A stretch of 64,000 bases of DNA from Minisyncoccota bacterium (GTDB taxonomy: Bacteria; Patescibacteriota; Minisyncoccia; Phycocordibacterales; SBAW01): the NCBI GenBank assembly GCA_035546615.1, contig DASZWM010000006.1:1-64000 (forward strand), given 5' to 3'. A program made the position numbers and the translations under genes. Positions within the stretch are counted from its first letter, which is position 1, and each line of letters opens with the position of its first letter. This document shows positions 1,842 through 53,399 of the stretch, piece by piece. The notes below the pieces were generated by a model, which worked only from the letters and a program-made list of their open reading frames with translations, searched no databases and was not told the origin of the DNA.

Positions 1842-1871
1842 AGGAGAAAAAGAAGCTATATACTACTGGCT

Positions 1872-2891: not shown

Positions 2892-2898
2892 TTTCTGT

Positions 2899-3339
2899 AT
2901 GACAAAAGTCTTTCTGGCATCCGACCATGCAGGCTACGAATTGAAAGAAGCGCTTACGCCGTTCCTCGCGGAGCGCGGATTTGCCGTTGAGGACCTTGGA
3001 CCTTCTTCGCTTGACCCCAACGACGACTATCCGGATTACCTTGGGTCATTGGGCCGAAAAGTGGCTGAAAATAAGGGTTCCTTCGGCATCGGCATCGGCG
3101 GCTCCGGCCAGGGGGAGGCTATGGCGGTGAACCGCAGCCTCGGCGCGCGCGCCGCAGTGTATTACGGCGGGCCCGAGGAAATAGTGAAGCTCTCGCGTCA
3201 GCACAACGACGCCAATGTGCTGAGCCTCGGCGCGCGCTTTTTGTCGGCTGACGAGGCGAAGAAAGCCGTCGAGCTCTGGCTCGCCACTCCTTTTTCCGGC
3301 GACGAGCGGCACGCGCGACGCATACAGAAGCTCGGATAA
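2899..3339 (+). CDS. rpiB: Ribose-5-phosphate isomerase B
   Basis: MTKVFLASDHAGYELKE... matches the RpiB/LacAB family; 146 aa. Confidence 0.85.
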   Translation: MTKVFLASDHAGYELKEALTPFLAERGFAVEDLGPSSLDPNDDYPDYLGSLGRKVAENKGSFGIGIGGSGQGEAMAVNRSLGARAAVYYGGPEEIVKLSRQHNDANVLSLGARFLSADEAKKAVELWLATPFSGDERHARRIQKLG

Positions 3340-3348
3340 TCTTCGGCC

Positions 3349-5899: not shown

Positions 5900-6099
5900 G
5901 GCCATGTTCGAAACCTTTACCCCCGTGCGCGGCAGCCTCTGGAAGCAGCGCGTCAACGCGGGGATAGGGAGCCTTTTCCTCGGCTCCGTCGCCTTGTGGG
6001 CCGCCCTTTTGATGTTCGAGATAGGCTGGGGGATGAATCCGGTCGCTAAAGCCTTCGCCGCCGCCGTCGCCCATGAGACGGCGCTTTCAAATAACTAAG

Positions 6100-22386: not shown

Positions 22387-23553
22387 TTAGTTCGTGCGGA
22401 CCGAGACAGTGTTATTGCCCTCGTTGAGCTCGCGGACCCAGTTGCGCGGGTCGGCGGTGATAGTGAGCGTGCCGCCGCGGGAATCATAGCGGTCATCGTT
22501 GCGATCGTAGTCGTCGCAGTACTCGTCATACCAGTCCTCCCACTCGTCGGTGTCCCAGTCGTCGCGGCTGTGGCTCGAGGTGTCCCAGGCATCCTGGTAC
22601 CAGTCCATCCAATCCTCCTCGTCCCAGCTGTTGTGGCTCTCGTCGCACTCGTCGTAGCGCTCGTCATCGGAGCGGCTGTCGCGCGAGCGGTAGCCCTCGT
22701 CGAAGGTCAGGGTGTAGACGATGCGGTCGCCCGGGTAGAGCGCCTGCTGCGCGGGGGAGCTGTAGGCGTAGCCGCCGTCAACCGGAATGTCCGCGGAAAG
22801 GTTCCAGCCGGCCGGCACGGTATTGGAGCCGACGTTCGCTATCTCGAACTGCGCCGCGGTGCTGCCGTAGCGCGAGGAAAGGGAATTGACCGAAAGGATG
22901 CGGACAGAAAGGTCCGGGTAGCCGTACAGCGCGGTCGCGCGCGGCGCGGCATAGTAGGTGGCGCCGGCGTAGCTGGCACCGGTCGAGGCGGGAGCCGTGA
23001 CAGGAGCCGCCGCGGCAACCGCGGGATTAACGGTCACGTCGGCCGATGCGCTTGCGGTGATGGCTCCGTCGCTGAGGCGCGTCGCAAGCACGGTTATGGT
23101 CGTATTAGCCGCCTGCTTAGCCGTGTTCTTCGCGGTAAGCGTCATGTTGGAGGTCGCGCCCGTGTAATTGAAGGACGAGCCGCATGCGACGGTCTGCGAT
23201 TTGCCCGCCGGGGTAGGGGCCTGAATGGAGAGGCCGCTTGCGCACGAGAAGGAGAGCGCGTAGCTATACTCGCCGTCCTTGTTCGAGTGGTTCCAGGAAA
23301 CGCTGAACGACTGTCCGGAGGCGACAGCGGAGCTCGGCACGGTAAGAGTCATCTCTTCGGTGCCGTTATCGTTCGTGTCGTGCGCGGTGCCGGTCATGAG
23401 CGAGGTAAGGCTTGAGCCCACGCCGCCGACGATGGAGGAAAGGTTAAACGCGAGCAGGATAATGCCCCAAGCGCCCAAAAGCAGCACAAGAATAACCCCG
23501 AGGAGGGCTACGACGCGCAGAAAGGTGTCCCGGAAAGTCTTTTTTTCGTGCAT
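22387..23553 (-). CDS. Cell-surface protein with CARDB-like domains and an Asp/Trp/Glu-rich low-complexity insert
   Basis: N-terminal signal anchor; S/T/A-rich linker; FEIANVGSNTV... and C-terminal ...RELNEGNNTVSV (CARDB E-x-NE-x-NN hallmark); ~70-aa D/W/E/Y-rich segment. Confidence 0.55.
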   Translation of the reverse strand: MHEKKTFRDTFLRVVALLGVILVLLLGAWGIILLAFNLSSIVGGVGSSLTSLMTGTAHDTNDNGTEEMTLTVPSSAVASGQSFSVSWNHSNKDGEYSYALSFSCASGLSIQAPTPAGKSQTVACGSSFNYTGATSNMTLTAKNTAKQAANTTITVLATRLSDGAITASASADVTVNPAVAAAAPVTAPASTGASYAGATYYAAPRATALYGYPDLSVRILSVNSLSSRYGSTAAQFEIANVGSNTVPAGWNLSADIPVDGGYAYSSPAQQALYPGDRIVYTLTFDEGYRSRDSRSDDERYDECDESHNSWDEEDWMDWYQDAWDTSSHSRDDWDTDEWEDWYDEYCDDYDRNDDRYDSRGGTLTITADPRNWVRELNEGNNTVSVRTN

Positions 23554-26232: not shown

Positions 26233-27531
26233 ATGAACAGCAATATTATAAACATAGGTCGTAAGATAAGCGTTGCTCTTATAGCGCTTATAGTTCTCGT
26301 GTTGCCTTTCGCTTCGGTGCAGGCAGCTGACTACTCTGACTATGATTATGTCGGGACCTCGTATTATGGTTCTGACTCTTCTAGCGATTACGTCGGGACT
26401 TCCTATTATGATTCCGGTTCTTCAAATAGTGGGAGCGATTACGTAGGAACGTCTTACTATACTCCTGATACTTCCAATGACTATGATTACGTTGGAACTT
26501 CGTACTATGAAGATAACTCTTCTGACTATGATTATGTCGGAACCTCCTATTATGGCTCTGGCTGCACCACGAACTGTGGCGGCGGTGGAGGTGGCGGCGG
26601 GGGCGGCGGATGCCGTTCTAACTGCACCCCTCCTCCTCCGAAGCCGGCCCCGGTTTGCGACCTCTCGGTCAGCCCTTCGCGCGTAGATTACGGCGATTCC
26701 GTAACTATCTCCTGGACCACGTCCAACGCCATCAGCGCCTTCCTCGCCGGTTTCGGCACGGTGTCCACTAACGGCTCCCGCACCAGCGGCGCTATCTATG
26801 GCACCAAGACCTACACTCTTACCGCGACCGCAAGCGGCGGCCGCACGGTAACCTGCTCCAAGACCGTTACAGTCGAGCGCGAGCATGAGCACACGCCCGA
26901 TCTCGAGTGCAAGCTTAAGGCTTCCGACACGAGCATCGAGCGCGGAGACTCGGTCCGCATCACCTGGTCTAGCGACGGCGCTGACTACGGCTACATCACT
27001 CCGGATATCGGTGATGTCGATGAAAGCGGTTCCGACACGGTAGAACCTCGCTCTGATACGACTTACAAGGGTACCTTCTACAACGACGACGGCGACAAGG
27101 TTACCTGCTCGGTCAAGGTAAACGTTGACCGCGAGTACAATCCGCCGGTCTACGAGAATCCGACTCCGTACATTAACCTCTCCGCTGTTCCGTACACCGG
27201 CCTTGACCTCGGTCCTGTCGGTACGGTTCTCTACTGGGCGTTCCTCATCGCATGGTGCCTCGTTGCCGCATACCTTATCGCGGTCAAGCGCGTCCACATG
27301 AGCGTGTACCGCTGGTACAAGAAGGCGCTCTTCGGCGAGGAGGTGCACTTCGCGCCGGCGCAGGAAGTCTCCTTCGCAGGGTTCTCCCACGCTGATGTCG
27401 CAAAGCTCGCAGAGATGCTTCGCGGCGCAGTCGCTCCCTCGCACGCTTCGGCACCTGTTGCTGCAGCTCCCGCAGGCGATGCGATAGACCCGTTCATCCT
27501 CTCGCAGATCCATCGCACTCCGCGCTCCTAA
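26233..27531 (+). CDS. Surface repeat protein: 5x DYVGTSYY repeats, poly-Gly/Cys spacer, two Ig-like C...C domains, TM, cytoplasmic tail
   Basis: Signal peptide; repeats D-Y-(D-Y)-V-G-T-S-Y-Y separated by S/D-rich spacers; CGGGGGGGGGGGGC; PPPPKP; two ~70-aa Cys-bounded beta-rich modules; VLYWAFLIAWCLVAAYLIAV TM. 5' third is AT-rich. Confidence 0.5.
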   Translation: MNSNIINIGRKISVALIALIVLVLPFASVQAADYSDYDYVGTSYYGSDSSSDYVGTSYYDSGSSNSGSDYVGTSYYTPDTSNDYDYVGTSYYEDNSSDYDYVGTSYYGSGCTTNCGGGGGGGGGGGCRSNCTPPPPKPAPVCDLSVSPSRVDYGDSVTISWTTSNAISAFLAGFGTVSTNGSRTSGAIYGTKTYTLTATASGGRTVTCSKTVTVEREHEHTPDLECKLKASDTSIERGDSVRITWSSDGADYGYITPDIGDVDESGSDTVEPRSDTTYKGTFYNDDGDKVTCSVKVNVDREYNPPVYENPTPYINLSAVPYTGLDLGPVGTVLYWAFLIAWCLVAAYLIAVKRVHMSVYRWYKKALFGEEVHFAPAQEVSFAGFSHADVAKLAEMLRGAVAPSHASAPVAAAPAGDAIDPFILSQIHRTPRS

Positions 27532-32972: not shown

Positions 32973-33287
32973 ATGCATCCGATCGTTATCGTTCTTGCCA
33001 TAATCGCCGTCATCGTATTGTTTGCCGTTCTCCAGGCCGGCTCGGCGGGCTTGACCCCTGTCGTCTTCGCTGCGGCTTGGCAGGAATGGCGCTGCCGCCG
33101 GGCGCACGCCTATCTAATGCGGCACGACCCGGATTTCAGGGACCGGGAAGAGAAGCATGCGCGACACCAACGGAACCATGCCGTAGCGCGCGAGCGCGAG
33201 GAGTTGTATACCGAGGGCGTATCGCCGGACGATCCCCGCATCCCCAATTTTGAGTATCCAGGGGAACGCGATCTGAAATTCCTCTAG
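32973..33287 (+). CDS. Small hypothetical membrane protein
   Basis: ORF with one TM, His/Arg-rich tail. Confidence 0.3.
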   Translation: MHPIVIVLAIIAVIVLFAVLQAGSAGLTPVVFAAAWQEWRCRRAHAYLMRHDPDFRDREEKHARHQRNHAVAREREELYTEGVSPDDPRIPNFEYPGERDLKFL

Positions 33288-33361
33288 CGAGGGCGTGGAA
33301 CAAGGAAAAACGGGCGCTTGCGCGAGCGAGCGCCTGTTTTCTTTTTATATACAATAGGTAG

Positions 33362-33964
33362 GTGAAAAAGTTTTTAGCAGGCATAGACGAGGCAGGGCGC
33401 GGGCCTTTGGCGGGGCCGGTTTCGGTGGGCGTGGTAGTTGTGCCTATTGATTTCGACTTCAAGCTTTTTGACGGCGTGCGGGATTCAAAGCTCATGACCG
33501 AAGCCGCTCGCGAAGAATGGTTTCAGCGGCTGCCGGCGCTTGAGACATCTGCGGGCGTTCGGTGGAGCGTGCAATTCTCCTCCGCTCTATATATAGACAC
33601 ATACGGGATAGTGCCCGCGGTGAAGCGCGCCATCGCGCATGCGCTTCGGGAACTTGCGCTTGATCCGGAAGAGACCGAAATACGCCTCGACGGCTCGCTC
33701 AAGGCGCCCGCCGAATTTTTGCATCAGACGACCATCATCCGCGGCGACCAGACGCAGCCGGTAATAAGCATGGCGTCGGTCGCGGCCAAGGTCAGCCGCG
33801 ACCGGCTTATGAAAAAGCTCGCCGTAAAGTATCCGGAGTACGGCTTCGATATCCACAAGGGCTACGGCACCAAAAAACACCGAGAATTGATAGGGAAACT
33901 GGGGGTATGTAGCCTTCATCGCAAGACCTTCTGCAAGGTTGAAAAACAGGCACAAAAGGAGTAA
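33362..33964 (+). CDS. rnhB: Ribonuclease HII
   Basis: GIDEAGRGPLAGPV catalytic motif; 200 aa. Confidence 0.88.
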   Translation: MKKFLAGIDEAGRGPLAGPVSVGVVVVPIDFDFKLFDGVRDSKLMTEAAREEWFQRLPALETSAGVRWSVQFSSALYIDTYGIVPAVKRAIAHALRELALDPEETEIRLDGSLKAPAEFLHQTTIIRGDQTQPVISMASVAAKVSRDRLMKKLAVKYPEYGFDIHKGYGTKKHRELIGKLGVCSLHRKTFCKVEKQAQKE

Positions 33965-34048
33965 GGTTAATAGCCGGAATAGCTTAAGTACGTGCCTATG
34001 ACTAAAGCGGCGCAATAAGCGCAAGAATTCTGTTTTGGGAGAACAACC

Positions 34049-34246
34049 TTGCCTTTCGAACAACTTGCGAAAAATGTTGTCGGTGAAAACGCCGACCTTC
34101 AGAACCTCGCGCAGCAATGCTGTAACAAGTTCGGCCTTCCCGGAGGCTGTACGTGTGCCGACGAGGTGATCAACACGACTGCTTGGCAGGACTGGCCTCC
34201 GGGCCCTCTTGCCGAACTGCTGACACAGGCGAAACACCCGCACTAG
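34049..34246 (+). CDS. Small Cys-rich hypothetical protein (TTG start)
   Basis: GGGAGA RBS 6 nt upstream of TTG; CCNKFGLPGGCTC motif; followed by hairpin + T-run terminator (~34274..34313). Confidence 0.3.
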   Translation: MPFEQLAKNVVGENADLQNLAQQCCNKFGLPGGCTCADEVINTTAWQDWPPGPLAELLTQAKHPH

Positions 34247-34363
34247 CGGTTCCGCTTGTCATCAGCCTAAAAGGACCCAGCCCCTCGATTTCGGGGGACT
34301 GGGCCTTTTGCTTTATACCCAGTCTAAATTGCGTTTTAAGCCATATTTTGGTATAGTCTCGCC

Positions 34364-34600
34364 ATGGTCGTCCGAATGAGACATAACAGGAGCCAGACCG
34401 GTCAGCACCGGGCTCATCTCGCGCTTAAGGCGAAGTCGCTTATGAAGTGCGAATGCGGCGCCATGCGCGTGTCTCATAGGGCATGCCCGGAATGCGGCCG
34501 TTACAACGGCCGCGTCGTGGTTGACCTGGCGGGCAAAAAGCAGGCCCGCGCCGCAAAGAAGTCGAAGAAGGAAGGAGTTAAGAGCGAGGCGCAGAAGTAG
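34364..34600 (+). CDS. rpmF: 50S ribosomal protein L32
   Basis: RHNRSQ..HRACPECGRYNGRVV zinc-ribbon L32 signature; promoter-like TTGCGT-17-TATAGT upstream. Confidence 0.85.
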   Translation: MVVRMRHNRSQTGQHRAHLALKAKSLMKCECGAMRVSHRACPECGRYNGRVVVDLAGKKQARAAKKSKKEGVKSEAQK

Positions 34601-34677
34601 TTGTCTGCCTTTGGCTCTTAGGTCTATCTGAAGTTCGGTCGCTTGGCGCAGGTTCGAAAGCAGCTCTTTCATAAACA

Positions 34678-35586
34678 ATGGCAAATAGGCACCTATCCCG
34701 CTCAGTTGTCCTACAGACGCTCTTTGAGTGGGACATCCGCAATGCTTCGTCCGAAGGGGCGGGGGATGCCCTTGCGCGCAATGCCGCGGAGTTTGCTCCG
34801 GCGGCGGGCGACCTGCCGTTTATGGAAGACTTGCTCAAGGGAACTCTTTCCCGCAAAGCGGACCTTGATATGGTCATTGAAAAGGCGGCGCCCGAGTGGC
34901 CGCTTGATCGCATCGCGCCTGTGGACCGCAATGTCCTGAGGCTCGGGCTCTACGAGCTTCTTTTTGCCGACCGCGACAAGGTTCCGGCAAAGGTGGCGAT
35001 AAACGAGGCTATTGAGCTGGCGAAGTCCTTCGGCGGCGAGAATTCCGGACGCTTCGTCAACGGCGTGCTCGGCGCCGTGTACAAGGAGCTCGGCGAGCCG
35101 GGCAAGGACGAAGTCTCCAAGAAAAAGAAGGACGTTCCGTACGAGGAAATGCCGGTCCAGCACCTGGGCGGCGCTGTCGTCTACGCGCGCCAGGGCAAGG
35201 ACCTGTATCTGGCGCTCGTGCACGATATCTTCGGCCACTGGACGCTCTCTAAGGGCAAAATAGGCGACAAGCCCGAATTCGCCAACGAAACGGTGGAGGA
35301 AGGCACGATACGCGAGATAAAAGAGGAGATAGGCCTGGACATAACGCTCAAGGAGAAGATAGGCGAGAACGAGTACGTCGCAAGCGACCCGAAGACCGGC
35401 AAGAAGCGCAAGCACGTCACCTACTTCCTTGCGGAGTCGCCGTTCGCCGAAGTAAAGCTCGAGCAGAAAGGCGGGCTCGACGACGCGCGATGGTTCAAGC
35501 TACAGGACGCGCTCGACCTCAATTTCTACGAAGATATGCTCCCGCTCGTTACAAAAGCAGTGCAAAGATTAGCCCAAGAGAAATAG
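34678..35586 (+). CDS. nusB: NusB antitermination factor fused in-frame to a C-terminal Nudix hydrolase domain
   Basis: N-terminal ~140 aa NusB (RSVVLQTLFEWDIR...); C-terminal Nudix box GHWTLSKGKIGDKPEFANETVEEGTIREIKEEIGLD (G-x5-E-x7-REuxEExGu). Confidence 0.8.
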   Translation: MANRHLSRSVVLQTLFEWDIRNASSEGAGDALARNAAEFAPAAGDLPFMEDLLKGTLSRKADLDMVIEKAAPEWPLDRIAPVDRNVLRLGLYELLFADRDKVPAKVAINEAIELAKSFGGENSGRFVNGVLGAVYKELGEPGKDEVSKKKKDVPYEEMPVQHLGGAVVYARQGKDLYLALVHDIFGHWTLSKGKIGDKPEFANETVEEGTIREIKEEIGLDITLKEKIGENEYVASDPKTGKKRKHVTYFLAESPFAEVKLEQKGGLDDARWFKLQDALDLNFYEDMLPLVTKAVQRLAQEK

Positions 35587-35651
35587 GGTATAGCCACTAG
35601 CCAATAGTGAGCTCCCTACACCCTAAACCCTAACCACCAAACCCTACTCCC

Positions 35652-36344
35652 ATGCAGAAAGACTTTACGGCATTTGAGGCTTCCCTCGGCCTGACCTTCC
35701 GCGACCCGGCGCTTTTGCGCCAGGCTTTTACGCATCGCTCGTACCTCAATGAACACCGTTCTGAGGGCAGCGCGCACAACGAACGCCTCGAGTTCCTCGG
35801 CGACGCCGTGCTCGAGCTCATCGCCACGCACTTTTTGTACGAGAAATTCCCCGCGCATCCGGAGGGCGACCTGACGGCATTCCGCGCCTCGCTCGTGAAT
35901 GCCGTAACGCTCGGCGGCGTGGCGGCGGAAATAGGCATGAACGACTACCTGCTTCTTTCAAAGGGCGAAAGCAAGGACAACGGTCGCGCCCGCAGCGTGC
36001 TCCTGGCCAATGCCATTGAGGCGCTGGTGGGCGCGATATATCTTGACCAGGGCTATGATGCCGCGAAGGCCTTTATCGAAAAGCATCTCTTCCCCAAACT
36101 CGACGAGATAGTGCAGAAGAAGCTTTGGCGCGACGCCAAGTCGGTGCTTCAGGAGCGCGCGCAGGAAACGGAAGGCGCCACGCCATCGTACTCGGTCATG
36201 ACCGAGTCCGGCCCCGACCACGACAAGCAGTTCGTCGTCGGCGTCTACGTAAAAGACACGATGCTGGCCAAGGGAAGCGGCAAGTCAAAGCAGGAGGCGG
36301 AGCAGGACGCCGCCCGCAACGCGCTTGAAGCCAAGGGGTGGTAA
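35652..36344 (+). CDS. rnc: Ribonuclease III
   Basis: ERLEFLGDAVLEL catalytic signature; C-terminal dsRBD; 230 aa. Confidence 0.9.
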   Translation: MQKDFTAFEASLGLTFRDPALLRQAFTHRSYLNEHRSEGSAHNERLEFLGDAVLELIATHFLYEKFPAHPEGDLTAFRASLVNAVTLGGVAAEIGMNDYLLLSKGESKDNGRARSVLLANAIEALVGAIYLDQGYDAAKAFIEKHLFPKLDEIVQKKLWRDAKSVLQERAQETEGATPSYSVMTESGPDHDKQFVVGVYVKDTMLAKGSGKSKQEAEQDAARNALEAKGW

Positions 36345-36381
36345 GAGTACTGTTACTCCAGATCCAACGGAGGATGCAGGC

Positions 36382-36576
36382 ATGGCGATGTTTCTGGTAT
36401 CGGATTCTTCGCGGCGCGAAGCCCTGAGAAGAATGCACAGAGAACAGGTTGAGCCGATGATGCGAAGGCTGGCGTTCATCAGGAGCCCGGCTTTCGCTCG
36501 CGCGGTCAATGCGGCCAACCGAAAGGGCGAGCATCTGTGGAATAAAAGGAAGCGCGAGCAAGAGGGTGTCCGATGA
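36382..36576 (+). CDS. Small hypothetical protein
   Basis: GGAGGA RBS upstream of ATG; basic 64-aa ORF. Confidence 0.25.
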   Translation: MAMFLVSDSSRREALRRMHREQVEPMMRRLAFIRSPAFARAVNAANRKGEHLWNKRKREQEGVR

Positions 36577-36607
36577 GGGCATCCTAAACTTTTGCTACAA
36601 TAGCCCT

Positions 36608-38872
36608 ATGCGCTTAAAAAGCATCGAGCTGTCGGGCTTCAAGTCTTTTGCCAAAAAGACGACGCTTGAATTCGGCACGTCCATAACCTCCATCGTGGGC
36701 CCCAACGGCTCGGGCAAATCGAATACCGCCGAATCCTTCCGCTTCGTGCTCGGCGAGCAGTCGATGAAGTCGATGCGCGGGCGAAAAGGCGAGGACATGA
36801 TCTGGAACGGTTCGGCTTCGGTGCCGCGCGCGGGCCGCGCCAGCGTGAAGCTCATTTTCGACAACGCCGACCGGGCGCTCAATCTCGACTTCGACGAGGT
36901 GTCTATCGAGCGCGTCGTATACCGCGACGGCGGCAACGACTATCTGCTTAACGGCAGCCAGGTGCGCCTGCGCGATATTTCCGAGCTTTTGGCCCAGGCC
37001 AATATCGGCGCTTCCGGCCACCACATTATTTCCCAGGGCGAAGCAGACCGCGTGCTGACGGCGTCTTCCCGCGAGCGGCGCGAGATGATAGAGGACGCGC
37101 TGGGGCTGACCGCTTTTTTGTATAAGCGCGAGGAGGCCGAGCGCAAGCTCGAGAAGGCGGCGGAGAACATGCGCGAGGTGGGGGCCCTCAGGCGCGAGCT
37201 CATGCCGCATTTGAAGTTCCTCGCAAGCCAGGTAAAGAAAATAGAGGAGGCGCAGACGCTCAAAGACACGCTTGCGGAAAAGTTCGCCGAGTATCTGAAG
37301 CGGGAAAGCGTATATCTCGCCGCCGCCGAAGCGGAACTGAAGGAAGAAGAGGCCGCTCCGCATGCAGAGCACCGCGAGCTCGATTCCCGTATCGAACATC
37401 TTCGTCACGAGCTTGCGGGCAAGGGCAAGAAAGATGCTGAAACCCACGAACTCATCGCGCTTGAGGCAGAGGGCCGCACGCTCGCGGGAAAGCGCGATGC
37501 CCGGGCCCGCGAACTGGGGCGGGTGGAAGGCGAGATTGCCGCGCAGGAGCGCATGTCGCATGTAGTGGTGAGTACGGTGCCGATGGAGGAGGCAAATACA
37601 TTCGCTAACCGCGTGCAGGAAGAGCTTGAACTGTTTCTGACGCTCGAAGGCCAGCCGCTCAAGGCGCGGATACACGCGCTTGTCGTGCTTGCCAAGGACT
37701 TCCTGCGCCGCATCAAGGAGCGCGGCATGCCGCAGGGGACTAGCGTGGAATCGCTCAAGGCAAAGCATGCGGAGCTTGAACAGGAGCTGAAAGAACTCCA
37801 GGCCGGGGAAGCCCGCGTCGCCCGAGAGGTGGAAGCCCTGCGCCGCAAGATAGAAGGAGAAAAGGACGCTTCGCGCGAAGCGGAGCGCGAGCTCTTCCAG
37901 GCGATGGCAAAGCGCAGCGAGCTTGAGGTGGAACTTGCCCGTCTTAAGAACCGACGCGACATCCTGGCGCGCGAACGCGAGCAATTTAAGGCGGAAGTAA
38001 CTGAAGCAGGCGTTCTAGTAGGCCGCGCCGCGCTCGACTACGCCGACTACAGGGTGCAGGAAGGTTCCGGCGAAGCGGTTTCCGAGGCGGATATGGCAAG
38101 CGAGGAGCGCGGCGTGCAGTCCGACCGCCGCCGCAAGCTTGAGCGCATGAAGATAAAGCTTGAGGAAATAGGCGCGGGGAACTCGGAGGAAGTCTTGCGC
38201 GAGCACAAAGAGACGACCGAGCGGGACGAGTTCTTGGCACGCGAGCTGCTGGATCTTGAATCATCGTCCGAGAAGCTGCACGGCCTCATCAATGAGCTCA
38301 CCGCAACGCTTGAGACGCGCTTCTCCGAAGGCATCGAGAAGATAAATACCGAATTCGATACGTACTTCAAGCTCATGTTCGGCGGCGGCAACGCCAGCCT
38401 CACGCTTGTTAAGGAAAAGAAGGCGCGCCGCGCGGTGCCCACAGGCCTGCTCGGCGATTTTGAAGAGGACAGCGAACATGAAGAAACACGCGCTGATGCT
38501 GAGGAAGAGGATATAGAGGAGGGAATCGAGATAGCCGTTACCCTGCCGCACAAGCGCATCAAGGGCCTCCATATGCTCTCGGGCGGCGAACGCGCGCTTA
38601 CGTCCATCGCGCTCATATTCGCGATGAGCCAGGTCAACCCGCCCCCCTTCCTGATACTCGACGAGACCGACGCGGCGCTGGACGAGGCGAACTCGCGCCG
38701 CTATGGCGACATGATAGAGAATCTTGCCAAAAAGTCCCAGCTTATTTTGATAACGCACAACCGCGAGACCATGGCCCGCGCCGGCATCCTCTACGGAGTA
38801 ACGATGGGCAGCGACGGCGCGTCCAAGCTCTTGTCAGTCCGATTTGAAGACGCGCTCGCAGTGGCGAAATAA
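36608..38872 (+). CDS. smc: SMC-family chromosome segregation ATPase (short, ~754 aa)
   Basis: Walker A GPNGSGKSN at N-terminus; long coiled coils; C-terminal LSGGERALTSIAL signature + Walker B LILDETDAALD. Start moved to internal ATG (MRLKSIELSGFKSF). Confidence 0.8.
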   Translation: MRLKSIELSGFKSFAKKTTLEFGTSITSIVGPNGSGKSNTAESFRFVLGEQSMKSMRGRKGEDMIWNGSASVPRAGRASVKLIFDNADRALNLDFDEVSIERVVYRDGGNDYLLNGSQVRLRDISELLAQANIGASGHHIISQGEADRVLTASSRERREMIEDALGLTAFLYKREEAERKLEKAAENMREVGALRRELMPHLKFLASQVKKIEEAQTLKDTLAEKFAEYLKRESVYLAAAEAELKEEEAAPHAEHRELDSRIEHLRHELAGKGKKDAETHELIALEAEGRTLAGKRDARARELGRVEGEIAAQERMSHVVVSTVPMEEANTFANRVQEELELFLTLEGQPLKARIHALVVLAKDFLRRIKERGMPQGTSVESLKAKHAELEQELKELQAGEARVAREVEALRRKIEGEKDASREAERELFQAMAKRSELEVELARLKNRRDILAREREQFKAEVTEAGVLVGRAALDYADYRVQEGSGEAVSEADMASEERGVQSDRRRKLERMKIKLEEIGAGNSEEVLREHKETTERDEFLARELLDLESSSEKLHGLINELTATLETRFSEGIEKINTEFDTYFKLMFGGGNASLTLVKEKKARRAVPTGLLGDFEEDSEHEETRADAEEEDIEEGIEIAVTLPHKRIKGLHMLSGGERALTSIALIFAMSQVNPPPFLILDETDAALDEANSRRYGDMIENLAKKSQLILITHNRETMARAGILYGVTMGSDGASKLLSVRFEDALAVAK

Positions 38873-38943
38873 AAAAGCCGTGGTATAAAAGTAAGAATTC
38901 CGCGAATTTGGGCGGAAGCGAACATTTCCTAGGGAGAATCTAG

Positions 38944-39174
38944 ATGCAGCAGGCTCCGGTAGAGGTGCAGACCGCTGACGGGTCGTTCCTTGTCTCGAAA
39001 ATCGGGTACGAGCAGTTTCGGTGTCAACGCCAGACGCCCGAAGGGATCGTCGACGTTAATTACTGGAACGACATTCCCAGCAGCTCTTGGCCCCCGATCC
39101 AGCGGGCTGTTGAAGATCTTGCGCGCAGTCCGGCATTTCCTCCGGCTGCCAACACTAACCTCCGCTGGGATTAG
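38944..39174 (+). CDS. Hypothetical protein
   Basis: ORF followed by GC hairpin + T-run terminator (~39193..39230). Confidence 0.35.
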   Translation: MQQAPVEVQTADGSFLVSKIGYEQFRCQRQTPEGIVDVNYWNDIPSSSWPPIQRAVEDLARSPAFPPAANTNLRWD

Positions 39175-39242
39175 TCCGGTTCGAAATTCAAGGGTGCGGG
39201 CCGCAAGGCCCGCCCTTTTCTTTTTGACCCCTGGCGCATTCT

Positions 39243-39652: not shown

Positions 39653-41614
39653 TTATTTTACCAATTCGAAATCCAGCTGGCGGCTGCCGAGGTCGGCTGC
39701 GACCAGCTTAACCTTCACTTTGTCGCCGAGCGTGTATTTCTGCTTCGTGCGCTGGCCTATGAGCGCGTACTCCTTTGCGGAGTAGTTATAAAAATCATTG
39801 CCTATGGTACGCACGCGCACGAGGCCTTCGGCGGCGGACTCCTTATCTTCCACGTACAGGCCCCAGTCGGTCACGCCGGAAATCACGCCCTCGAATGTTT
39901 GGCCAATTTTCCCCATCATGAACTCCACCTGCTTGTAGCGGATGGATTCGCGCTCGGCGTCAACGGCTTCGGCTTCGCGGGCGGAAGCTGCGATGCACAT
40001 CTTCTCCAGGTTTCCGTATTCCGTGCGGGTCATAGGCTTGCCGTCCAAATGGCTGGCGAGGATGCGGTGCGCGAGCATGTCCGGGTAGCGGCGGATGGGG
40101 GAGGTGAAGTGCGTGTAGTAATCGAACGCGAGACCGAAGTGCCCGATGTTCTTGGTCGAGTAAATAGCCTTGGCCATAGAGCGAAGGGTGGCGGTGCGGA
40201 TAAGATGCTCCTCCGGCTTGCCCTGGATATCCTTCAAAAGCTTCCCGATGTCGCGCGCGGATTTCTTCTTTTGCGTATTGAATTCGTAGCCTATCGCGCG
40301 CACGAACGTGGAAAGCTCCTCGATGCGGTCCTCTTTCGGCTGGTCGTGGATGCGGTAGAGGAAGACATAATTTTTTTCCGGAAGCTTTTCCGCAAGCTTC
40401 GATACGTACAGCGCAACTTCGCGGTTCGCCAAAAGCATGAACTCCTCGATCATGAGCATTGTCTCGATGCGGACCTTGCGGATGACCTTGAGCGGCTTTC
40501 CGGATTCGTCGAGCACGAATTTCACTTCGTTGTCGCCGAAGTCTATCGCGCCTTCCTTCTCGCGCTCGCGGCGCAGTATCCGCGCCAGCGCCCGCATCTG
40601 GCCGAGCTCTTCCACATAGGGGCCTTTGCCCGCATTCAAAACTTCCTGCGCCTCCTCGTAGGTAAAGCGTTTGTTGGACCGAATGACCGACTTCGTAAAG
40701 CGGCGGTCGAGCACCTCCGCCTGCGCGTTCATGCGGAATACCGCGGAGAACGCGAGCCGGTCCTCGTCGGCCTTGAGGCTGGCGATGCCGGCCGAAAGGC
40801 TGTGGGGAAGCATGGGAATGGTCGCGTCTACCAGGTACACGCTTGTGCCGCGCTTCACGGCCTCCTCGTCCAGGGCGGTCCCGGGGCGCACGAAGTGCGT
40901 GGCATCGGCGATATGCACGCCTATCTCGAACTCGCCGTTCGGGAGCGGCTTAACCGAAATGGCATCGTCGAAGTCCTTCGCGTCGGCCGGGTCGATAGTG
41001 AAGGTTGTCGTGTCGCGAAAGTCTTCCCGCTTAGGAAGCTCTTCCTCGATTATTTTCGCATGATTAGCCTCAAGTTCGCGCGCCTCGGCTTCCGCCGCTT
41101 CGGGAAATTCGGTGCGGAAGCCGTGCTCGAGCACGATGGCGTTCATCTCCACCCGGTGCTCGCCCGCGCGGCCCAGGTGCTGAGTTATGGAGCCGACCGG
41201 GTCGGTCTTTCCGTCAAAAGATATCAAATGCACGATGACCTTCTCTCCCTCCTCGTATTTGCTGTCGTCCGACAGCGTGATGGGGCGGTAGAATTTCACG
41301 TCCGCAGGCACGGCAACGATGCGGCCGCCTTGCTGGCGCAGCGTTGCGACGAAGTCTTCTTTGGCGCGGGCAACAATTTTTACCATCTTGCCTTTGGGGC
41401 GGGGGAATAGGCCCAGCACTTCTGCTTCGACAGTGTCGCCATTGAGCGCCCCAGACAGGTCGGGAGTCTGTATCTCTATATCCTCCTTCTCAGGGTCCTC
41501 AGGCCACGAAAGATAACCGACGCCTTTGCGGGTTACTTGGACGATTCCGGAAATGGTCTTCTTCTTGCCCGCTTGGGGGGCCGGTTTCTTGCTAGGAGGC
41601 ATTAACCCGCGCAC
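39653..41614 (-). CDS. rnr: Ribonuclease R / RNase II family 3'-5' exoribonuclease
   Basis: RNB domain motifs (FTIDPADAKDFDDAISV), cold-shock/S1-like flanks, K-rich N-terminus; 653 aa. Confidence 0.85.
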   Translation of the reverse strand: MRGLMPPSKKPAPQAGKKKTISGIVQVTRKGVGYLSWPEDPEKEDIEIQTPDLSGALNGDTVEAEVLGLFPRPKGKMVKIVARAKEDFVATLRQQGGRIVAVPADVKFYRPITLSDDSKYEEGEKVIVHLISFDGKTDPVGSITQHLGRAGEHRVEMNAIVLEHGFRTEFPEAAEAEARELEANHAKIIEEELPKREDFRDTTTFTIDPADAKDFDDAISVKPLPNGEFEIGVHIADATHFVRPGTALDEEAVKRGTSVYLVDATIPMLPHSLSAGIASLKADEDRLAFSAVFRMNAQAEVLDRRFTKSVIRSNKRFTYEEAQEVLNAGKGPYVEELGQMRALARILRREREKEGAIDFGDNEVKFVLDESGKPLKVIRKVRIETMLMIEEFMLLANREVALYVSKLAEKLPEKNYVFLYRIHDQPKEDRIEELSTFVRAIGYEFNTQKKKSARDIGKLLKDIQGKPEEHLIRTATLRSMAKAIYSTKNIGHFGLAFDYYTHFTSPIRRYPDMLAHRILASHLDGKPMTRTEYGNLEKMCIAASAREAEAVDAERESIRYKQVEFMMGKIGQTFEGVISGVTDWGLYVEDKESAAEGLVRVRTIGNDFYNYSAKEYALIGQRTKQKYTLGDKVKVKLVAADLGSRQLDFELVK

Positions 41615-42660: not shown

Positions 42661-43500
42661 TTGCTTTTCCCGCCCTCCTTTATACTGTGGAGTATGTATC
42701 CTCCTGTTTCTGACCTGCTCGCAGAGCTCTCTTTATTTCCCGGAAGGGAAGACGGCTTGCGGAAAATTAAAAGGTATAGCAATGAGAAAGTAGCTTTTTA
42801 CCGCTCTTCTGATTTTTCTCATAGCAAGAGAGTGGCGTGGCTTGTATATAGTCTCATCCCATTATTATCAGAGGTAGATAAGACTTTTGATATAGGGCGC
42901 GCTGTGGCTATGGCGCTCGTGCACGACGATGCTGAACTGATAACGGGTGATCATCAAGCTGGTAATAAAAGCAAAATGACCAAAGAGCAGCTTGCTGCAA
43001 TTGCTGACGAAGAACGTGAAGCGATTGCCGCTTTGGCAAAGAGATATCCAAAAACTCTCGGCGGATATGTCTATCAGGACCTAGTACAAGATCTCGCTGA
43101 TCTAAAGAATTCTGAAGCTCATTTTGTTAAGTACTTTGATCGTTTTGATGCTTTGGGGGAGACTTACCATGAACTCTTTGCAGGGAATGTGGTTTGGACG
43201 CAAAACGTAGTTAATGAGTGGGGCATCATTCCCACACCTTTTATGTATTACTACGATAGGCTGCCGCCCATGGTTGAGAAGTATCCGATCCTGACTGCTT
43301 TAAAAGGAAAACATGTATTCTTCGATGTCCCTGAAGCCAGAGAATGGGAATCATTTGTCCTGACTCGTCAGCCTCATACAAAGGATTCAATACTTGCGTC
43401 TACTGGTCATAGGCAATATGATGCCTGGCGCTCTGTTGTTATTGATTCTGCAGATCAAGAAGAAATCGCAAATCTCTACTCTCAACAAGAATACCTATGA
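42661..43500 (+). CDS. HD-domain phosphohydrolase (YfbR/5'-deoxynucleotidase-like), AT-rich insert
   Basis: H...HD motif (ALVHDDAELITGDH); gene visibly AT-rich relative to flanks; stop overlaps trmD start (ATGA). Confidence 0.65.
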   Translation: MLFPPSFILWSMYPPVSDLLAELSLFPGREDGLRKIKRYSNEKVAFYRSSDFSHSKRVAWLVYSLIPLLSEVDKTFDIGRAVAMALVHDDAELITGDHQAGNKSKMTKEQLAAIADEEREAIAALAKRYPKTLGGYVYQDLVQDLADLKNSEAHFVKYFDRFDALGETYHELFAGNVVWTQNVVNEWGIIPTPFMYYYDRLPPMVEKYPILTALKGKHVFFDVPEAREWESFVLTRQPHTKDSILASTGHRQYDAWRSVVIDSADQEEIANLYSQQEYL

Positions 43501-44153
43501 ATTTCCATGTCGTAACGCTTTTTCCGGAAGTTATCGAGGCCTATACGAACGCTTCGATACTGGGCCGTGCCCAGAAAGAGAAGAAGTTTTCCGTTAAGAC
43601 CTACCAGCTGCGCGATTTCGTCAGCAATAAATGGGGCAAGGTAGACGAGCGCCCATACGGCGGCGGCCCGGGCATGGTTATCCAGGCCGAGCCGGTCATC
43701 AGGGCAGTCCAGAAAATATCTGGACTTACGAAGTCCAGAATTCGGCCGAAGGTCATTATTACTGCGGCAGGCGGCAAGCCTTTGACCAACGCGTATGCCA
43801 AAGCGCTTTTGAAGCAAAAGGACGTCATAATCGTTTGCGGCAGGTACGAAGGCATCGACGCCCGGGCAAAAAAAGTGCTCAAGGCCGAAGAAGTCTCCGT
43901 TGGGCCGTACATTCTGACCGGGGGCGAGGTTCCGGCCTTGGCAATCATTGATGCGACCGCTCGGCAGATAAAGGGCGTTTTGGGCAAGTTCGAGTCCCTC
44001 GAGGAGTCCCGGGTCGCAAGCCACGAGATATACACCCGCCCCGAGGTCCTGAAAGCAAAAGGAAAGAACTACGCGGTCCCGAAGGTCCTCCTCTCCGGCC
44101 ATCATGCAAAGATGGACCAGTGGAAAGAAAAGAAACGCAGCAAACCCCTATAA
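43497..44153 (+). CDS. trmD: tRNA (guanine37-N1)-methyltransferase
   Basis: MNFHVVTLFPEV...; RPYGGGPGMV; CGRYEGIDAR SPOUT-knot motifs. Confidence 0.9.
   Translation: MNFHVVTLFPEVIEAYTNASILGRAQKEKKFSVKTYQLRDFVSNKWGKVDERPYGGGPGMVIQAEPVIRAVQKISGLTKSRIRPKVIITAAGGKPLTNAYAKALLKQKDVIIVCGRYEGIDARAKKVLKAEEVSVGPYILTGGEVPALAIIDATARQIKGVLGKFESLEESRVASHEIYTRPEVLKAKGKNYAVPKVLLSGHHAKMDQWKEKKRSKPL
43719..43739. repeat. Palindromic element copy TCTGGACTTACGAAGTCCAGA inside trmD (codes ISGLTKSRI)
   Basis: Identical 21-nt core and identical reading frame as the pheT copy. Confidence 0.9.
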
Positions 44154-44315: not shown

Positions 44316-51293
<6,978 letters not shown>

Positions 51294-53292: not shown

Positions 53293-53302
53293 TAAAAACT
53301 CC

Positions 53303-53330
53303 GGTATATGCAGTGTGCCCTGCATATACC
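53303..53330. other. Perfect 11-bp-stem hairpin GGTATATGCAG-tgtgcc-CTGCATATACC after dnaG, no T-run
   Basis: Read directly; lies between dnaG and the rpoD promoter region. Confidence 0.4.
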
Positions 53331-53399
53331 CGTCGCGGCGTTCGCAAATAAAGGAGGCCTTTATTTTCTCACTTTGCTAGGGTATAATATCTCCCATCA

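What the first reader, a model, noticed from the sequence alone, without database searches (positions are those of the whole stretch)
34678..35586. NusB fused to a Nudix hydrolase domain
A single 302-aa ORF has a complete NusB fold signature in its first ~140 aa and a canonical Nudix box (GHWTLSKGKIGDKPEFANETVEEGTIREIKEEIGLD) in its C-terminal half. It lies directly after rpmF and before rnc. A transcription antitermination/rRNA-processing factor covalently linked to a pyrophosphohydrolase (nucleotide sanitising, or (p)ppGpp/Ap4A/NAD-cap hydrolysis) is an unusual architecture. It suggests coupling of rRNA transcription control to nucleotide-alarmone or RNA 5'-cap turnover.
Basis: partly seen in the sequence, partly recalled or inferred. 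Interest (0 to 1): 0.62.

Follow-up and report, generated by a model that had tools for sequence, protein, structure and literature searches.

The report
NusB fused to Ap4A-hydrolase-type Nudix domain
This ultra-small (Patescibacteria) bacterium's only visible copy of the rRNA transcription factor NusB really does carry a flexibly tethered Nudix domain of the Ap4A-hydrolase type. The fusion is conserved in thousands of relatives, is labelled only 'NusB' in databases, and has not been studied.

Summary
Window 34678-35586 (+) is one uninterrupted 302-aa ORF with a full-length NusB domain (aa 1-140), a disordered Lys-rich linker (aa 141-157) and a Nudix domain (aa 158-302). It lies between rpmF and rnc.

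The fusion is not an artefact. All 240 listed database relatives carry both Pfam domains, as do 31 related genome loci fetched here.

- **Subfamily:** by sequence and predicted fold the Nudix part belongs with Ap4A/Ap6A hydrolases (Aquifex aq_158, Ndx1, NUDT2, CT771).
- **Box:** it is not strictly canonical. The spacing is G-x10-E-x7-REIKEEIGL, from a clade-specific 5-residue insertion.
- **Gene order:** rnhB-rpmF-nusB-rnc-smc is conserved across Patescibacteria. Saccharibacteria have a separate, canonical Nudix gene between nusB and rnc. Published Tn-seq calls that gene essential, though polarity on rnc is not excluded.
- **Catalytic residues:** among 85 diverse fused proteins only 21 keep the full R-E..E-E set. 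The domain and other residues persist. The window's own clade keeps the set in 117 of 120.

Best reading (inferred): NusB anchors a nucleoside-polyphosphate-binding domain, here probably hydrolytic, on BoxA RNA. Assessment: a new variant of a known kind, of moderate interest.

The parts
34678..35586 (+). nusB::nudix fusion ORF (302 aa plus stop)
   Evidence: Identical to P0001, named by NCBI 'transcription antitermination factor NusB [Candidatus Paceibacterota bacterium]'.
34678..35097 (+). NusB domain (aa 1-140)
   Evidence: PF01029 and TIGR01951 score above their cut-offs. PDB NusB chains match at E 1e-19 to 1e-16, with the NEAIELAKSFGGENS..FVNGVLG motif shared with E. coli NusB. The AF2 model has seven helices at pLDDT about 80-96. 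Foldseek matches M. tuberculosis NusB 1eyv at TMt 0.79.
35098..35148 (+). Linker PGKDEVSKKKKDVPYEE (aa 141-157)
   Evidence: The AF2 model has pLDDT below 50 for aa 141-152 and pTM 0.68, which fits a flexible tether. Sequence confirmed.
35149..35583 (+). Nudix domain (aa 158-302), Ap4A/Ap6A-hydrolase type
   Evidence: PF00293. A profile of the domain matches Aquifex Ap4A hydrolase 3i7u at E 3e-28, Ndx1 at 1e-19 and NUDT2 at 2e-18, followed by CT771 and C. elegans Ap4A hydrolase. Foldseek gives 3i7u TMt 0.87 and Ndx1 0.84.
35254..35337 (+). Nudix box GKIGDKPEFANETVEEGTIREIKEEIGL (aa 193-220): G-x10-E-x7-REUXEEXGU
   Evidence: In the window's own clade, R212/E213/E216/E217 are kept in 117 of 120 close homologues.
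35269..35283 (+). Clade-specific 5-residue insertion (KPEFA, aa 198-202) in the G-x5-E loop
   Evidence: These are gap columns in 92-94% of 85 fused relatives. The insertion is present in P0001, L001, L002, L003 and L024. Its consensus is KIGD[ANSK]PEIAN in the 120 closest homologues.
34663..34677 (+). BoxA-like element GCTCTTTCATAAACA directly upstream of the start codon (tentative)
   Evidence: It resembles the BoxA consensus GYTCTTTAANA (PMC5725501). The motif G[CT]TCTT[TC] lies within 40 nt upstream of nusB in 12 of 31 fused-clade loci, against 0.66 expected by chance.
34364..34600 (+). rpmF (ribosomal protein L32), upstream neighbour
   Evidence: PF01783. The position is conserved in the related loci.
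35652..36344 (+). rnc (RNase III), downstream neighbour
   Evidence: PF14622, PF00636 and dsrm. rnc directly follows nusB or nusB::nudix in nearly all of the 80 loci.
33362..33964 (+). rnhB (RNase HII), probable first gene of the operon
   Evidence: PF01351. A terminator-like hairpin lies at 33307-33340 just upstream, and no intergenic one was found from rpmF through smc; the only + strand matches there lie inside the nusB and rnc coding sequences.
36509..38872 (+). Short SMC-like ATPase (787 aa), downstream of rnc
   Evidence: SMC_N matches across aa 36-772 with no hinge-domain hit. The synteny is conserved.

Best explanation
**Shown.** The gene is the organism's orthologous, housekeeping nusB. 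NusB is the factor that, with ribosomal protein S10, binds BoxA RNA in the rRNA antitermination complex. Here it is extended by a disordered, lysine-rich linker of about 17 residues and a Nudix domain of the Ap4A/Ap6A-hydrolase (NUDT2 / Ndx1 / aq_158) type. The fusion is old and stable within a large Paceibacteria (Parcubacteria) clade. Saccharibacteria carry the same three functions as separate genes in the order nusB, nudix, rnc. In Southlakia epibionticum the nudix gene overlaps nusB and abuts rnc.

**Inferred.** NusB acts as an anchor that holds the Nudix domain next to BoxA-containing nascent RNA, chiefly the rRNA leader. That leader is handed to RNase III by the same complex. There the Nudix domain binds a purine-nucleoside 5'-polyphosphate group. 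The most economical candidate is the 5'-triphosphate or Np4N-capped end of the leader RNA; free Ap4A-type dinucleotides are the alternative.

In this lineage the metal-binding residues R212/E213/E216/E217 are intact and under purifying selection. The domain is therefore probably an active pyrophosphohydrolase, working like RppH or NUDT2. That would mark or clear the leader's 5' end in step with RNase III processing.

In many sister lineages the catalytic glutamates are gone but the domain persists. The family-wide core role is therefore more likely binding or scaffolding than hydrolysis.

**Confidence split.** Real fusion of NusB with an ApnA-hydrolase-type Nudix domain: about 0.95. Functional integration with NusB: about 0.6. 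The RNA 5' end as the specific target: about 0.3.
For: - **Domains and intact ORF:**
- **Replication of the fusion:** hundreds of independent assemblies and 31 related genome loci.
- **Orthologous position:** the same dnaE/rnhB/rpmF/nusB/rnc/smc order holds whether NusB is fused or plain. No second nusB or second Nudix of this type was found in the 64-kb window.
- **Subfamily:** sequence and profile matches to Ap4A/Ap6A hydrolases and the predicted fold.
- **Flexible tether:**
- **Split and fused forms of the same pair ('Rosetta stone'):** five Saccharibacteria loci have a separate Nudix ORF with a canonical box between nusB and rnc. Plain-NusB lineages have none within 6 kb either side.
- **Experimental data:** in Southlakia epibionticum Tn-seq the nusB-adjacent NUDIX gene SEML1_0593 is called GD/ES/ES. 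It had 18 insertions in the input DNA and 4, 0 and 1 recovered at T0, T1 and T2, like nusB and rnc. Another NUDIX gene, SEML1_0092, is non-essential (PMC10633639 Table S1).
- **Catalytic set kept in the window's clade:** 117 of 120.
- **Domain retained after catalytic loss:** in the 33 fused proteins with at most one of the three glutamates, W188, K192, Y249, W272 and Y284 stay at 88-91% and domain length is unchanged. A dead enzyme domain kept in streamlined genomes argues for a role that depends on being part of NusB.
- **Precedent for the activity:** NUDT2 converts PPP-RNA to P-RNA and its E58A mutant does not (PMC8616924). E58 aligns with window E213.
[quoted passage not shown] The leader-trailer helix is essential for active 30S subunit formation, while boxA mutations cut activity only 2- to 3-fold (PMC10250234).
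Against: - No biochemical or RNA-binding data exist for any fused protein.
- E. coli RppH-type proteins are not among the 60 PDB sequence matches shown, of 151 found. The characterised substrates of the closest relatives are free ApnA dinucleotides.
- Loss of E213 in about 71% of diverse family members shows that hydrolysis is not the conserved function.
- The G-x10-E insertion in this clade could alter or weaken catalysis.
- The conserved aromatic residues may simply be fold core. Their assignment as base-stacking residues (Y233 and Y284 against the NUDT2 Tyr/Phe pair) rests on my memory of the NUDT2 and C. elegans literature, and a paper search for it found nothing.
- The Tn-seq result may reflect polarity on the essential rnc gene, or smoothing by the HMM caller.
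- The distance between BoxA and the rRNA 5' end in these organisms is unknown; no rRNA operon lies in the window.
Confidence: 0.4

Rival explanations
1. Free-nucleotide sensor or hydrolase. The Nudix domain binds (and in some lineages hydrolyses) free Ap4A/ApnA-type stress dinucleotides. It thereby tunes NusB activity or the local nucleotide pool at rRNA operons. This resembles Nudix-related transcriptional regulators (NrtR), in which a degenerate Nudix domain senses ADP-ribose.
For: The closest characterised relatives are free-ApnA hydrolases: aq_158, Ndx1, NUDT2, CT771 and Rv2985. The NrtR Nudix domain 3gz8 is among the top fold matches. Catalytic residues decay while other residues are conserved, as expected for a sensor.
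Against: No allosteric interface is predicted: the linker is disordered and pTM is 0.68. In Saccharibacteria the two proteins are separate, so intramolecular allostery cannot be ancestral. No ligand data exist.
Confidence: 0.25
2. Mechanistically uncoupled fusion. nusB and an ordinary housecleaning Ap4A hydrolase were overlapping operon neighbours, and loss of a stop codon merged them in a streamlined genome. The two halves work independently, and only co-expression is shared.
For: A split nusB-nudix-rnc arrangement exists in Saccharibacteria; in Southlakia the nudix gene overlaps nusB. The linker is long and disordered. The window's clade keeps a catalytically plausible box.
Against: The nusB-Nudix association, as adjacency or as fusion, is seen in both Saccharibacteria and Paceibacteria. 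The fused domain is kept at full length with conserved residues in lineages that lost the catalytic glutamates. That is hard to explain for a free-standing housecleaning enzyme in reduced genomes. The nusB-adjacent copy gave no viable insertions in Tn-seq, whereas another Nudix gene is dispensable.
Confidence: 0.2
3. Structural subunit. The Nudix domain is a protein-protein module that stabilises the Patescibacteria antitermination complex. This is analogous to SuhB, an inositol-monophosphatase-fold protein that locks the E. coli rrnTAC together. In this view catalysis is incidental.
For: SuhB binds last and stabilises the rrnTAC (bioRxiv 10.64898/2026.03.17.712431; PMC4807359 and PMC6614801, listed). 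Catalytic residues are frequently lost in the fused family.
Against: The catalytic set is strongly conserved in the window's clade (117 of 120) and in all five unfused Saccharibacteria copies. Whether these genomes lack SuhB was not tested. No partner surface has been identified.
Confidence: 0.14
4. Artefact: a frameshift, a chimeric assembly, or a missed stop codon joining two genes.
For: None found.
Against: The reading frame is uninterrupted. The same architecture is seen in all 240 listed database clusters from four independent sources and in 31 genome loci.
Confidence: 0.01

Closest known systems
NusB (TIGR01951 / PF01029), e.g. E. coli NusB in the NusB-S10-BoxA complex and the rrnTAC
   Same: Full-length domain scoring above the equivalog cut-off, seven-helix fold, a conserved NEAIELAK..FVNGVLG motif, and the orthologous genomic position.
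   Different: Carries a C-terminal linker and Nudix domain of about 160 aa that characterised NusB proteins lack. It sits next to rnc, whereas nusB lies directly downstream of ribH in pseudomonads (PMC5725501).
Ap4A/Ap6A Nudix hydrolases: Aquifex aq_158 (3i7u), T. thermophilus Ndx1 (1vc8), human NUDT2 (3u53), C. elegans Ap4A hydrolase (1ktg), Chlamydia CT771 (4mpo), M. tuberculosis Rv2985 (9cxx)
   Same: Best sequence-profile and fold matches. Shares the W-T-x-x-K-G motif, the REUXEEXGU helix and the C-terminal W-F...Y motif.
   Different: Fused to NusB. The window's clade has G-x10-E spacing. Most diverse family members lack the Glu that aligns with NUDT2 E58. The substrate is unknown.
RppH and NUDT2 as RNA 5'-pyrophosphohydrolases
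   Same: The proposed mode of action is the same: removal of 5' phosphates or caps from RNA. NUDT2, a close relative of this domain, does this (PMC8616924).
   Different: E. coli RppH itself is not among the 60 PDB sequence matches shown. No RNA activity has been tested. Known RppH enzymes are free-standing.
RsmB/Sun 16S rRNA m5C967 methyltransferase
   Same: A NusB-like N-terminal RNA-binding domain fused to an enzyme domain, a precedent for this kind of architecture. The NusB part gives sub-threshold hits to RsmB models.
   Different: The catalytic domain is a methyltransferase, not Nudix. The window protein is a true NusB orthologue, not an RsmB N-terminal domain.
Dcp2 (helical regulatory domain plus Nudix) and oomycete WY-Nudix decapping effectors
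   Same: Both have an all-helical N-terminal domain joined by a flexible hinge to a Nudix domain, and Dcp2 acts on RNA 5' caps. Foldseek aligns 258-281 columns.
   Different: The two-domain alignment has an rmsd of 13-15 Å, so this is only an architectural parallel. There is no homology between NusB and the Dcp2 N-terminal domain.
NrtR (Nudix-related transcriptional regulators) and SuhB in the rrnTAC
   Same: Both are precedents for an enzyme-fold domain serving a transcription factor or complex. The NrtR Nudix domain is a top fold match. SuhB stabilises the rrnTAC.
   Different: The window protein has no winged-helix DNA-binding domain and no IMPase fold. The window's own clade keeps its catalytic residues.

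Membership tests
NusB (transcription antitermination factor) | Matches the family HMMs above the curated cut-offs over the full length | tested here: met
   PF01029 scores 121 bits against 23.1 and covers profile positions 3-133 of 133. TIGR01951 scores 122.8 against 88.35.
NusB (transcription antitermination factor) | All-alpha, seven-helix NusB fold | tested here: met
   The AF2 model has helices at 4-17, 25-39, 46-58, 60-70, 81-96, 104-119 and 121-138. Foldseek matches 1eyv at TMt 0.79.
NusB (transcription antitermination factor) | Orthologous locus, and the only copy | tested here: inconclusive
   It occupies the conserved rpmF-nusB-rnc slot shared with plain NusB genes. No second copy is in the 64-kb window. 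The rest of the genome was not available.
NusB (transcription antitermination factor) | Binds S10 (NusE) and BoxA RNA, and supports antitermination | not testable with these tools
   Only sequence conservation of the motif shared with E. coli NusB and a BoxA-like element upstream of the gene.
Nudix hydrolase superfamily (PF00293) | Pfam model above its gathering score, and an alpha/beta/alpha Nudix fold | tested here: met
   49.1 bits against 21.1. The AF2 model has pLDDT of about 85-95 over most of the domain, dipping to 62 around the aa 238-240 loop, and TMt 0.87 to 3i7u.
Nudix hydrolase superfamily (PF00293) | Strict signature G-x5-E-x7-R-E-U-x-E-E-x-G-U | tested here: not met
   The window reads G193-x10-E204-x7-REIKEEIGL, with a 5-residue insertion in the first loop.
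Nudix hydrolase superfamily (PF00293) | Catalytic helix R-E-U-x-E-E-x-G-U with all three glutamates | tested here: met
   R212, E213, E216, E217 and G219 are present. They are kept in 117 of 120 close homologues but in only 21 of 85 diverse fused relatives.
Nudix hydrolase superfamily (PF00293) | Mg2+-dependent pyrophosphohydrolase activity | not testable with these tools
   No biochemical data for any fused member were found in the literature searches.
Ap4A/ApnA hydrolase (NUDT2-like) subfamily | Closest characterised relatives by sequence and by structure are ApnA hydrolases | tested here: met
   Profile matches: 3i7u at 3e-28, Ndx1 at 1e-19, NUDT2 at 2e-18, followed by CT771 and 1kt9. Foldseek gives the same ranking.
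Ap4A/ApnA hydrolase (NUDT2-like) subfamily | Phosphate-binding Lys of the P-K-G motif and the aromatic pair that stacks the adenine | tested here: inconclusive
   K192, Y233 and Y284 align with NUDT2 K42, the Tyr of 'NYVA' and the Phe of 'AQFKEM'. They are 82-96% conserved. Their functional role is from memory and was not verified.
Ap4A/ApnA hydrolase (NUDT2-like) subfamily | Hydrolyses Ap4A or longer ApnA | not testable with these tools
   -
RppH (RNA pyrophosphohydrolase) | Sequence membership of the RppH/NudH family | tested here: not met
   No RppH chain is among the 60 PDB matches shown, of 151 found. No RppH model is among the NCBIfam hits. Only the 'works like' claim remains, through the NUDT2 precedent.
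NrtR-type Nudix transcription regulators | Nudix domain fused to a winged-helix DNA-binding domain | tested here: not met
   The only other domain is NusB. The resemblance is fold-level only, to 3gz8.
RsmB/Sun | NusB-like domain followed by a SAM-dependent m5C methyltransferase domain | tested here: not met
   RsmB models match only aa 8-151 and score far below their cut-offs. There is no methyltransferase domain.

The most novel reading that the evidence does not exclude
In a major branch of Patescibacteria the rRNA antitermination factor NusB carries (or, in Saccharibacteria, is co-translated with) its own RNA 5'-end enzyme. This would be a NUDT2/RppH-like domain that reads or removes the triphosphate or Np4N cap of the BoxA-bearing rRNA leader, co-transcriptionally and inside the antitermination complex. 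That would make 5'-end chemistry an essential, built-in step of rRNA processing with RNase III. Lineages with dead active sites would keep the domain as a 5'-end clamp.
Probability: 0.25. Interest if true: 0.8.

Novelty: new variant of a known kind. Interest (0 to 1): 0.55.

Why it matters
NusB and the rRNA antitermination complex are textbook machinery, and no enzymatic appendage of NusB has been described. A Nudix domain of the Ap4A-hydrolase type, physically tied to NusB and genetically tied to RNase III across a huge uncultivated bacterial radiation, points to an unrecognised step in ribosome biogenesis. That step could be 5'-end or dinucleotide chemistry at the rRNA leader.

The family also offers a natural series running from active to inactive Nudix domains, useful for studying how an enzyme becomes a binding module.

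The question is testable. A cultivated, genetically tractable Saccharibacterium (Southlakia epibionticum) has the split version of the system, and its Nudix gene already scores as essential in Tn-seq. In practical terms, thousands of database entries labelled only 'NusB' miss half of the protein.

Tried and rejected
- **Assembly or frameshift artefact:** rejected.
- **Strict regular expression for the box:** a search for REUxEExGU across representatives first suggested that most relatives lack a Nudix box. An alignment showed the domain is present and only the catalytic residues vary.
- **Literature:** searches for NusB plus Nudix, NusB plus Patescibacteria, and CT771 found no paper on this architecture. 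A search to verify the adenine-stacking residues of Ap4A hydrolases found nothing, so that mapping is marked as being from memory.
- **afdb50 fold search:** the library was not installed, so UniProt naming and taxonomy of structural neighbours could not be checked.
- **The listing of cluster members on 10 divergent fused representatives:** gave no taxonomy.
- **Sigma-70 promoter scan of 33000-39200:** found none, so the promoter of the operon is unassigned.
- **Rfam scan:** found no rRNA or leader in the window, so the geometry between BoxA and the rRNA 5' end could not be examined.
- **NJ tree of the NusB domain:** most fused genes group together, consistent with one main fusion event. L044, a fused gene with a canonical box, sits among plain NusB genes. 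The tree rests on only 140 residues and is too weak to count events.
- **(p)ppGpp or NAD-cap hydrolase readings:** no specific support. NudC and NAD-diphosphatase similarities are weak.
Full report
**1. The observation**

Window 34678-35586 (+) is a single open reading frame of 302 codons with an ATG start and no internal stop.
- Pfam finds a full-length NusB domain at aa 7-136 (E 5.4e-35, profile positions 3-133 of 133). It also finds a NUDIX domain at aa 165-290 (E 7.7e-13, 49 bits against a cut-off of 21).
- NCBIfam's NusB equivalog TIGR01951 is passed at 122.8 bits against 88.35.
- The upstream gene is L32 (rpmF, 34364-34600) and the downstream gene is RNase III (rnc, 35652-36344). RNase HII lies before them and a short SMC-like ATPase after them.

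**2. The fusion is not an artefact**
- The identical protein is in NCBI as 'transcription antitermination factor NusB [Candidatus Paceibacterota bacterium]'.
- All 120 closest 90%-identity clusters (81-93% identical, 297-323 aa, from NCBI, JGI, ENA and Logan assemblies) carry both Pfam domains.
- A profile of diverse members retrieved 8000 of 8000 scored candidates at E below 1e-20. The best 120 again all have both domains, and every name a source gives is just NusB.
- An exhaustive search of 50%-identity representatives gave about 60 clusters of full-length fusions, down to 32% identity.

**3. Anatomy**

An AlphaFold2 model built on 142 homologues has mean pLDDT 84.7 and pTM 0.68.
- aa 1-138 form a seven-helix NusB domain.
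- aa 141-152 have pLDDT below 50. The linker reads PGKDEVSKKKKDVPYEE.
- aa 158-300 form a Nudix alpha/beta/alpha domain.
- The two domains therefore look flexibly tethered rather than docked.
- The NusB half aligns over its whole length with solved NusB proteins (E 1e-19 to 1e-16). It shares the NEAIELAKSFGGENS..FVNGVLG segment almost verbatim with E. coli NusB.

**4. Which kind of Nudix**
- By single-sequence search the best solved relatives are Chlamydia CT771, T. thermophilus Ndx1 (Ap6A hydrolase), mycobacterial MutT1/Rv2985, Dcp2 and human NUDT2.
- By profile search the order is Aquifex Ap4A hydrolase 3i7u (E 3e-28), Ndx1, NUDT2, CT771 and C. elegans Ap4A hydrolase.
- Foldseek gives the same set, with 3i7u at TMt 0.87 and Ndx1 at 0.84.
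- The domain is therefore of the Ap4A/ApnA-hydrolase type.
- The box is G193-x10-E204-x7-R212-E213-I-K-E216-E217-I-G219-L220. The catalytic helix is canonical, but the first loop carries a 5-residue insertion (aa 198-202).
- That insertion occurs only in the window's own clade, where it is conserved as KIGD[ANSK]PEIAN.

**5. Surroundings and relatives**

A scan of one genome per GTDB species returned 80 loci. The order dnaE(-)/rnhB/rpmF/nusB/rnc/smc is conserved across Patescibacteria. Three states occur:
- **(a) Fused NusB-Nudix (286-333 aa).** Found in genomes named Kaiserbacteria, Zambryskibacteria, Niyogibacteria, Ryanbacteria, Nomurabacteria, Parcubacteria and Paceibacterota.
- **(b) Plain NusB (133-183 aa) followed directly by rnc.** There is no such Nudix gene within 6 kb either side. 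Found in Yanofsky-, Azam-, Wildermuth-, Nealson-, Doudna- and Falkowbacteria and others.
- **(c) Split genes.** In five loci, two named as Saccharibacteria genera (Nanosyncoccus, Saccharimonas) and three labelled only Saccharibacteria, nusB ends normally. A separate Nudix ORF, usually in another frame with its ATG overlapping the end of nusB, sits between nusB and rnc. It has a fully canonical box (GH[IV]E[PE]GE-x7-RE[IV][GR]EE.GL).

This is a classic 'Rosetta stone' pattern: the same pair is split in one lineage and fused in another. A rough NJ tree of the NusB domain groups most fused genes together, with one outlier, L044.

**6. Experimental data point**

The published Tn-seq of the cultivated Saccharibacterium Southlakia epibionticum gives this gene run (PMC10633639 Table S1):
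- SEML1_0595: a 69-aa hypothetical protein in the L32 position.
- SEML1_0594: NusB.
- SEML1_0593: a NUDIX protein that overlaps nusB by 38 nt and abuts rnc.
- SEML1_0592: RNase III.

All four are called GD/ES/ES. The NUDIX gene had 18 insertion sites in the input DNA but only 4, 0 and 1 recovered at T0, T1 and T2. A second NUDIX gene, SEML1_0092, is non-essential. The paper's main text does not mention these genes. Polarity on rnc cannot be excluded.

**7. Catalytic residues decay but the domain stays**

In 85 diverse fused sequences:
- Only 21 keep R-E..E-E.
- E213, which aligns with NUDT2 E58, is kept in 29% and is otherwise K, V, I or A.
- E216 is kept in 68% and E217 in 82%.
- By contrast W188, K192, Y249, W272 and Y284 are 93-96% conserved.

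In the 33 sequences with at most one of the three glutamates, those residues are still at 88-91%. The domain length is unchanged, with a median of 142 aa.

NUDT2 E58A is inactive on PPP-RNA (PMC8616924), and Ndx1 E50Q (aligned with E217) and NUDT2 E58A were both crystallised with bound ligands (PDB titles). These lineages have therefore probably lost or greatly reduced hydrolysis. In contrast:
- The window's own clade keeps the set in 117 of 120 close homologues.
- Of the 120 profile-nearest homologues, 74 keep it.
- All five unfused Saccharibacteria copies keep it.

By alignment, K192, Y233 and Y284 correspond to the P-K-G lysine and the Tyr/Phe pair of NUDT2. I recall these as phosphate-binding and adenine-stacking residues. 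I could not verify that here.

**8. How it most likely works**

*Established knowledge.* NusB with S10 binds BoxA in the rRNA leader. The assembled antitermination complex keeps the leader near RNA polymerase and strongly boosts co-transcriptional RNase III cleavage (bioRxiv 10.64898/2026.03.17.712431; PMC10250234). This explains the tight nusB-rnc linkage seen here.

*Inference.* The Nudix domain is tethered, or co-translated, so that it acts beside BoxA-bound RNA. Given its subfamily and the NUDT2 precedent, the most economical target is a purine-nucleoside 5'-polyphosphate group. That is either the leader's own 5'-triphosphate or Np4N cap, or free ApnA. In the window's lineage the domain is probably hydrolytic; elsewhere it probably only binds.

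The rivals are:
- a free-nucleotide sensor like NrtR;
- an uncoupled fusion of operon neighbours;
- a SuhB-like structural subunit.

Retention of dead domains, the split/fused pattern and the Tn-seq result argue for functional integration. They do not identify the ligand.

**9. Comparison with what is known, and novelty**

The protein is a true NusB and a true Nudix-fold protein of the ApnA-hydrolase type. It is not an RppH, NrtR, RsmB or Dcp2 family member, although each offers a functional or architectural parallel. No paper describing the fusion was found, and databases name it only NusB. I rate it a new variant of a known kind. It is of moderate interest, and higher if the RNA 5'-end model proves right.

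**10. Seen in passing**
- **BoxA-like element.** GCTCTTTCATAAACA lies directly upstream of the start codon. Its core motif is enriched at that position in fused-clade loci: 12 of 31, against 0.66 expected. This hints at NusB autoregulation of the kind shown for E. coli suhB.
- **Fused RNA polymerase subunits.** The window encodes a 2325-aa in-frame rpoB-rpoC fusion.
- **Recoding.** One related AT-rich genome (L032) reads UGA as Trp at five conserved positions.

Noticed in passing
window 44316-51293 (+): A single 2325-aa ORF joins RNA polymerase beta (Rpb2 domains, aa 60-1088) in frame to beta' (Rpb1 domains, aa 1107-2203). This is an rpoB-rpoC fusion.
   Followed up: no
window 34663-34677 (+); also L001, L002, L005, L006, L008, L010-L012, L018, L021, L025, L026 just upstream of nusB: A BoxA-like element (GCTCTTTCATAAACA; L006 and L008 have GTTCTTTAACTA) lies 7-27 nt before the nusB start. 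The motif G[CT]TCTT[TC] occurs there in 12 of 31 fused-clade loci against 0.66 expected, and in 2 of 45 other loci against 0.75 expected. It resembles the consensus GYTCTTTAANA and the suhB autoregulation mechanism (PMC5725501).
   Followed up: partly
L032 (CAZWMQ010000003.1), 6220, 6544, 6844 and within dnaE 1448-4120: In an AT-rich MAG (28.5% GC), in-frame TGA codons fall exactly at conserved Trp positions: three in nusB::nudix and two in dnaE. This suggests UGA=Trp recoding in a Paceibacteria-like genome.
   Followed up: partly
L071, L074, L075, L078, L080 (about 6380-7090); Southlakia epibionticum SEML1_0592-0595: Saccharibacteria keep nusB, a canonical Nudix gene and rnc as three genes. 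In Southlakia the Nudix gene overlaps nusB by 38 nt and abuts rnc. There it gives almost no viable transposon insertions (GD/ES/ES), unlike another Nudix gene. The source paper does not discuss this.
   Followed up: yes
window 36509-38872 (+): The SMC-like protein downstream of rnc is only 787 aa. It matches SMC_N across both ends but gives no hinge-domain hit. Homology starts near aa 34, so the true start is probably the Met of MRLKSIELSGF. The same short gene follows rnc in many related loci.
   Followed up: no
window 33307-33340 (+): A strong terminator-like hairpin (15 pairs, followed by a T run) lies just upstream of rnhB. No intergenic terminator-like site lies between rpmF, nusB::nudix, rnc and smc; the + strand matches in that stretch fall inside coding sequence. 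No sigma-70-like promoter was found in 33000-39200. The genes are likely one operon with an unrecognised promoter type.
   Followed up: no
L044 (JBBIQZ010000012.1) 6001-6909: This is a fused NusB-Nudix with a canonical box whose NusB domain groups with plain NusB genes in the NJ tree. Representatives P0149, P0163, P0240 and P0259 look similar. It may be a second, independent fusion or a deep branch.
   Followed up: partly
window 39653-41614 (-), 42661-44153 (+), 51679-54632 (+): Other housekeeping genes in the window: RNase R, a YfbR-like HD phosphohydrolase, TrmD, DnaG and RpoD. Further upstream are GyrB, PheT, a class II aaRS, a sortase and a GT2 glycosyltransferase. Several long ORFs have no Pfam hit (for example 26233-27531, 22387-23553 and 55048-56295).
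   Followed up: no
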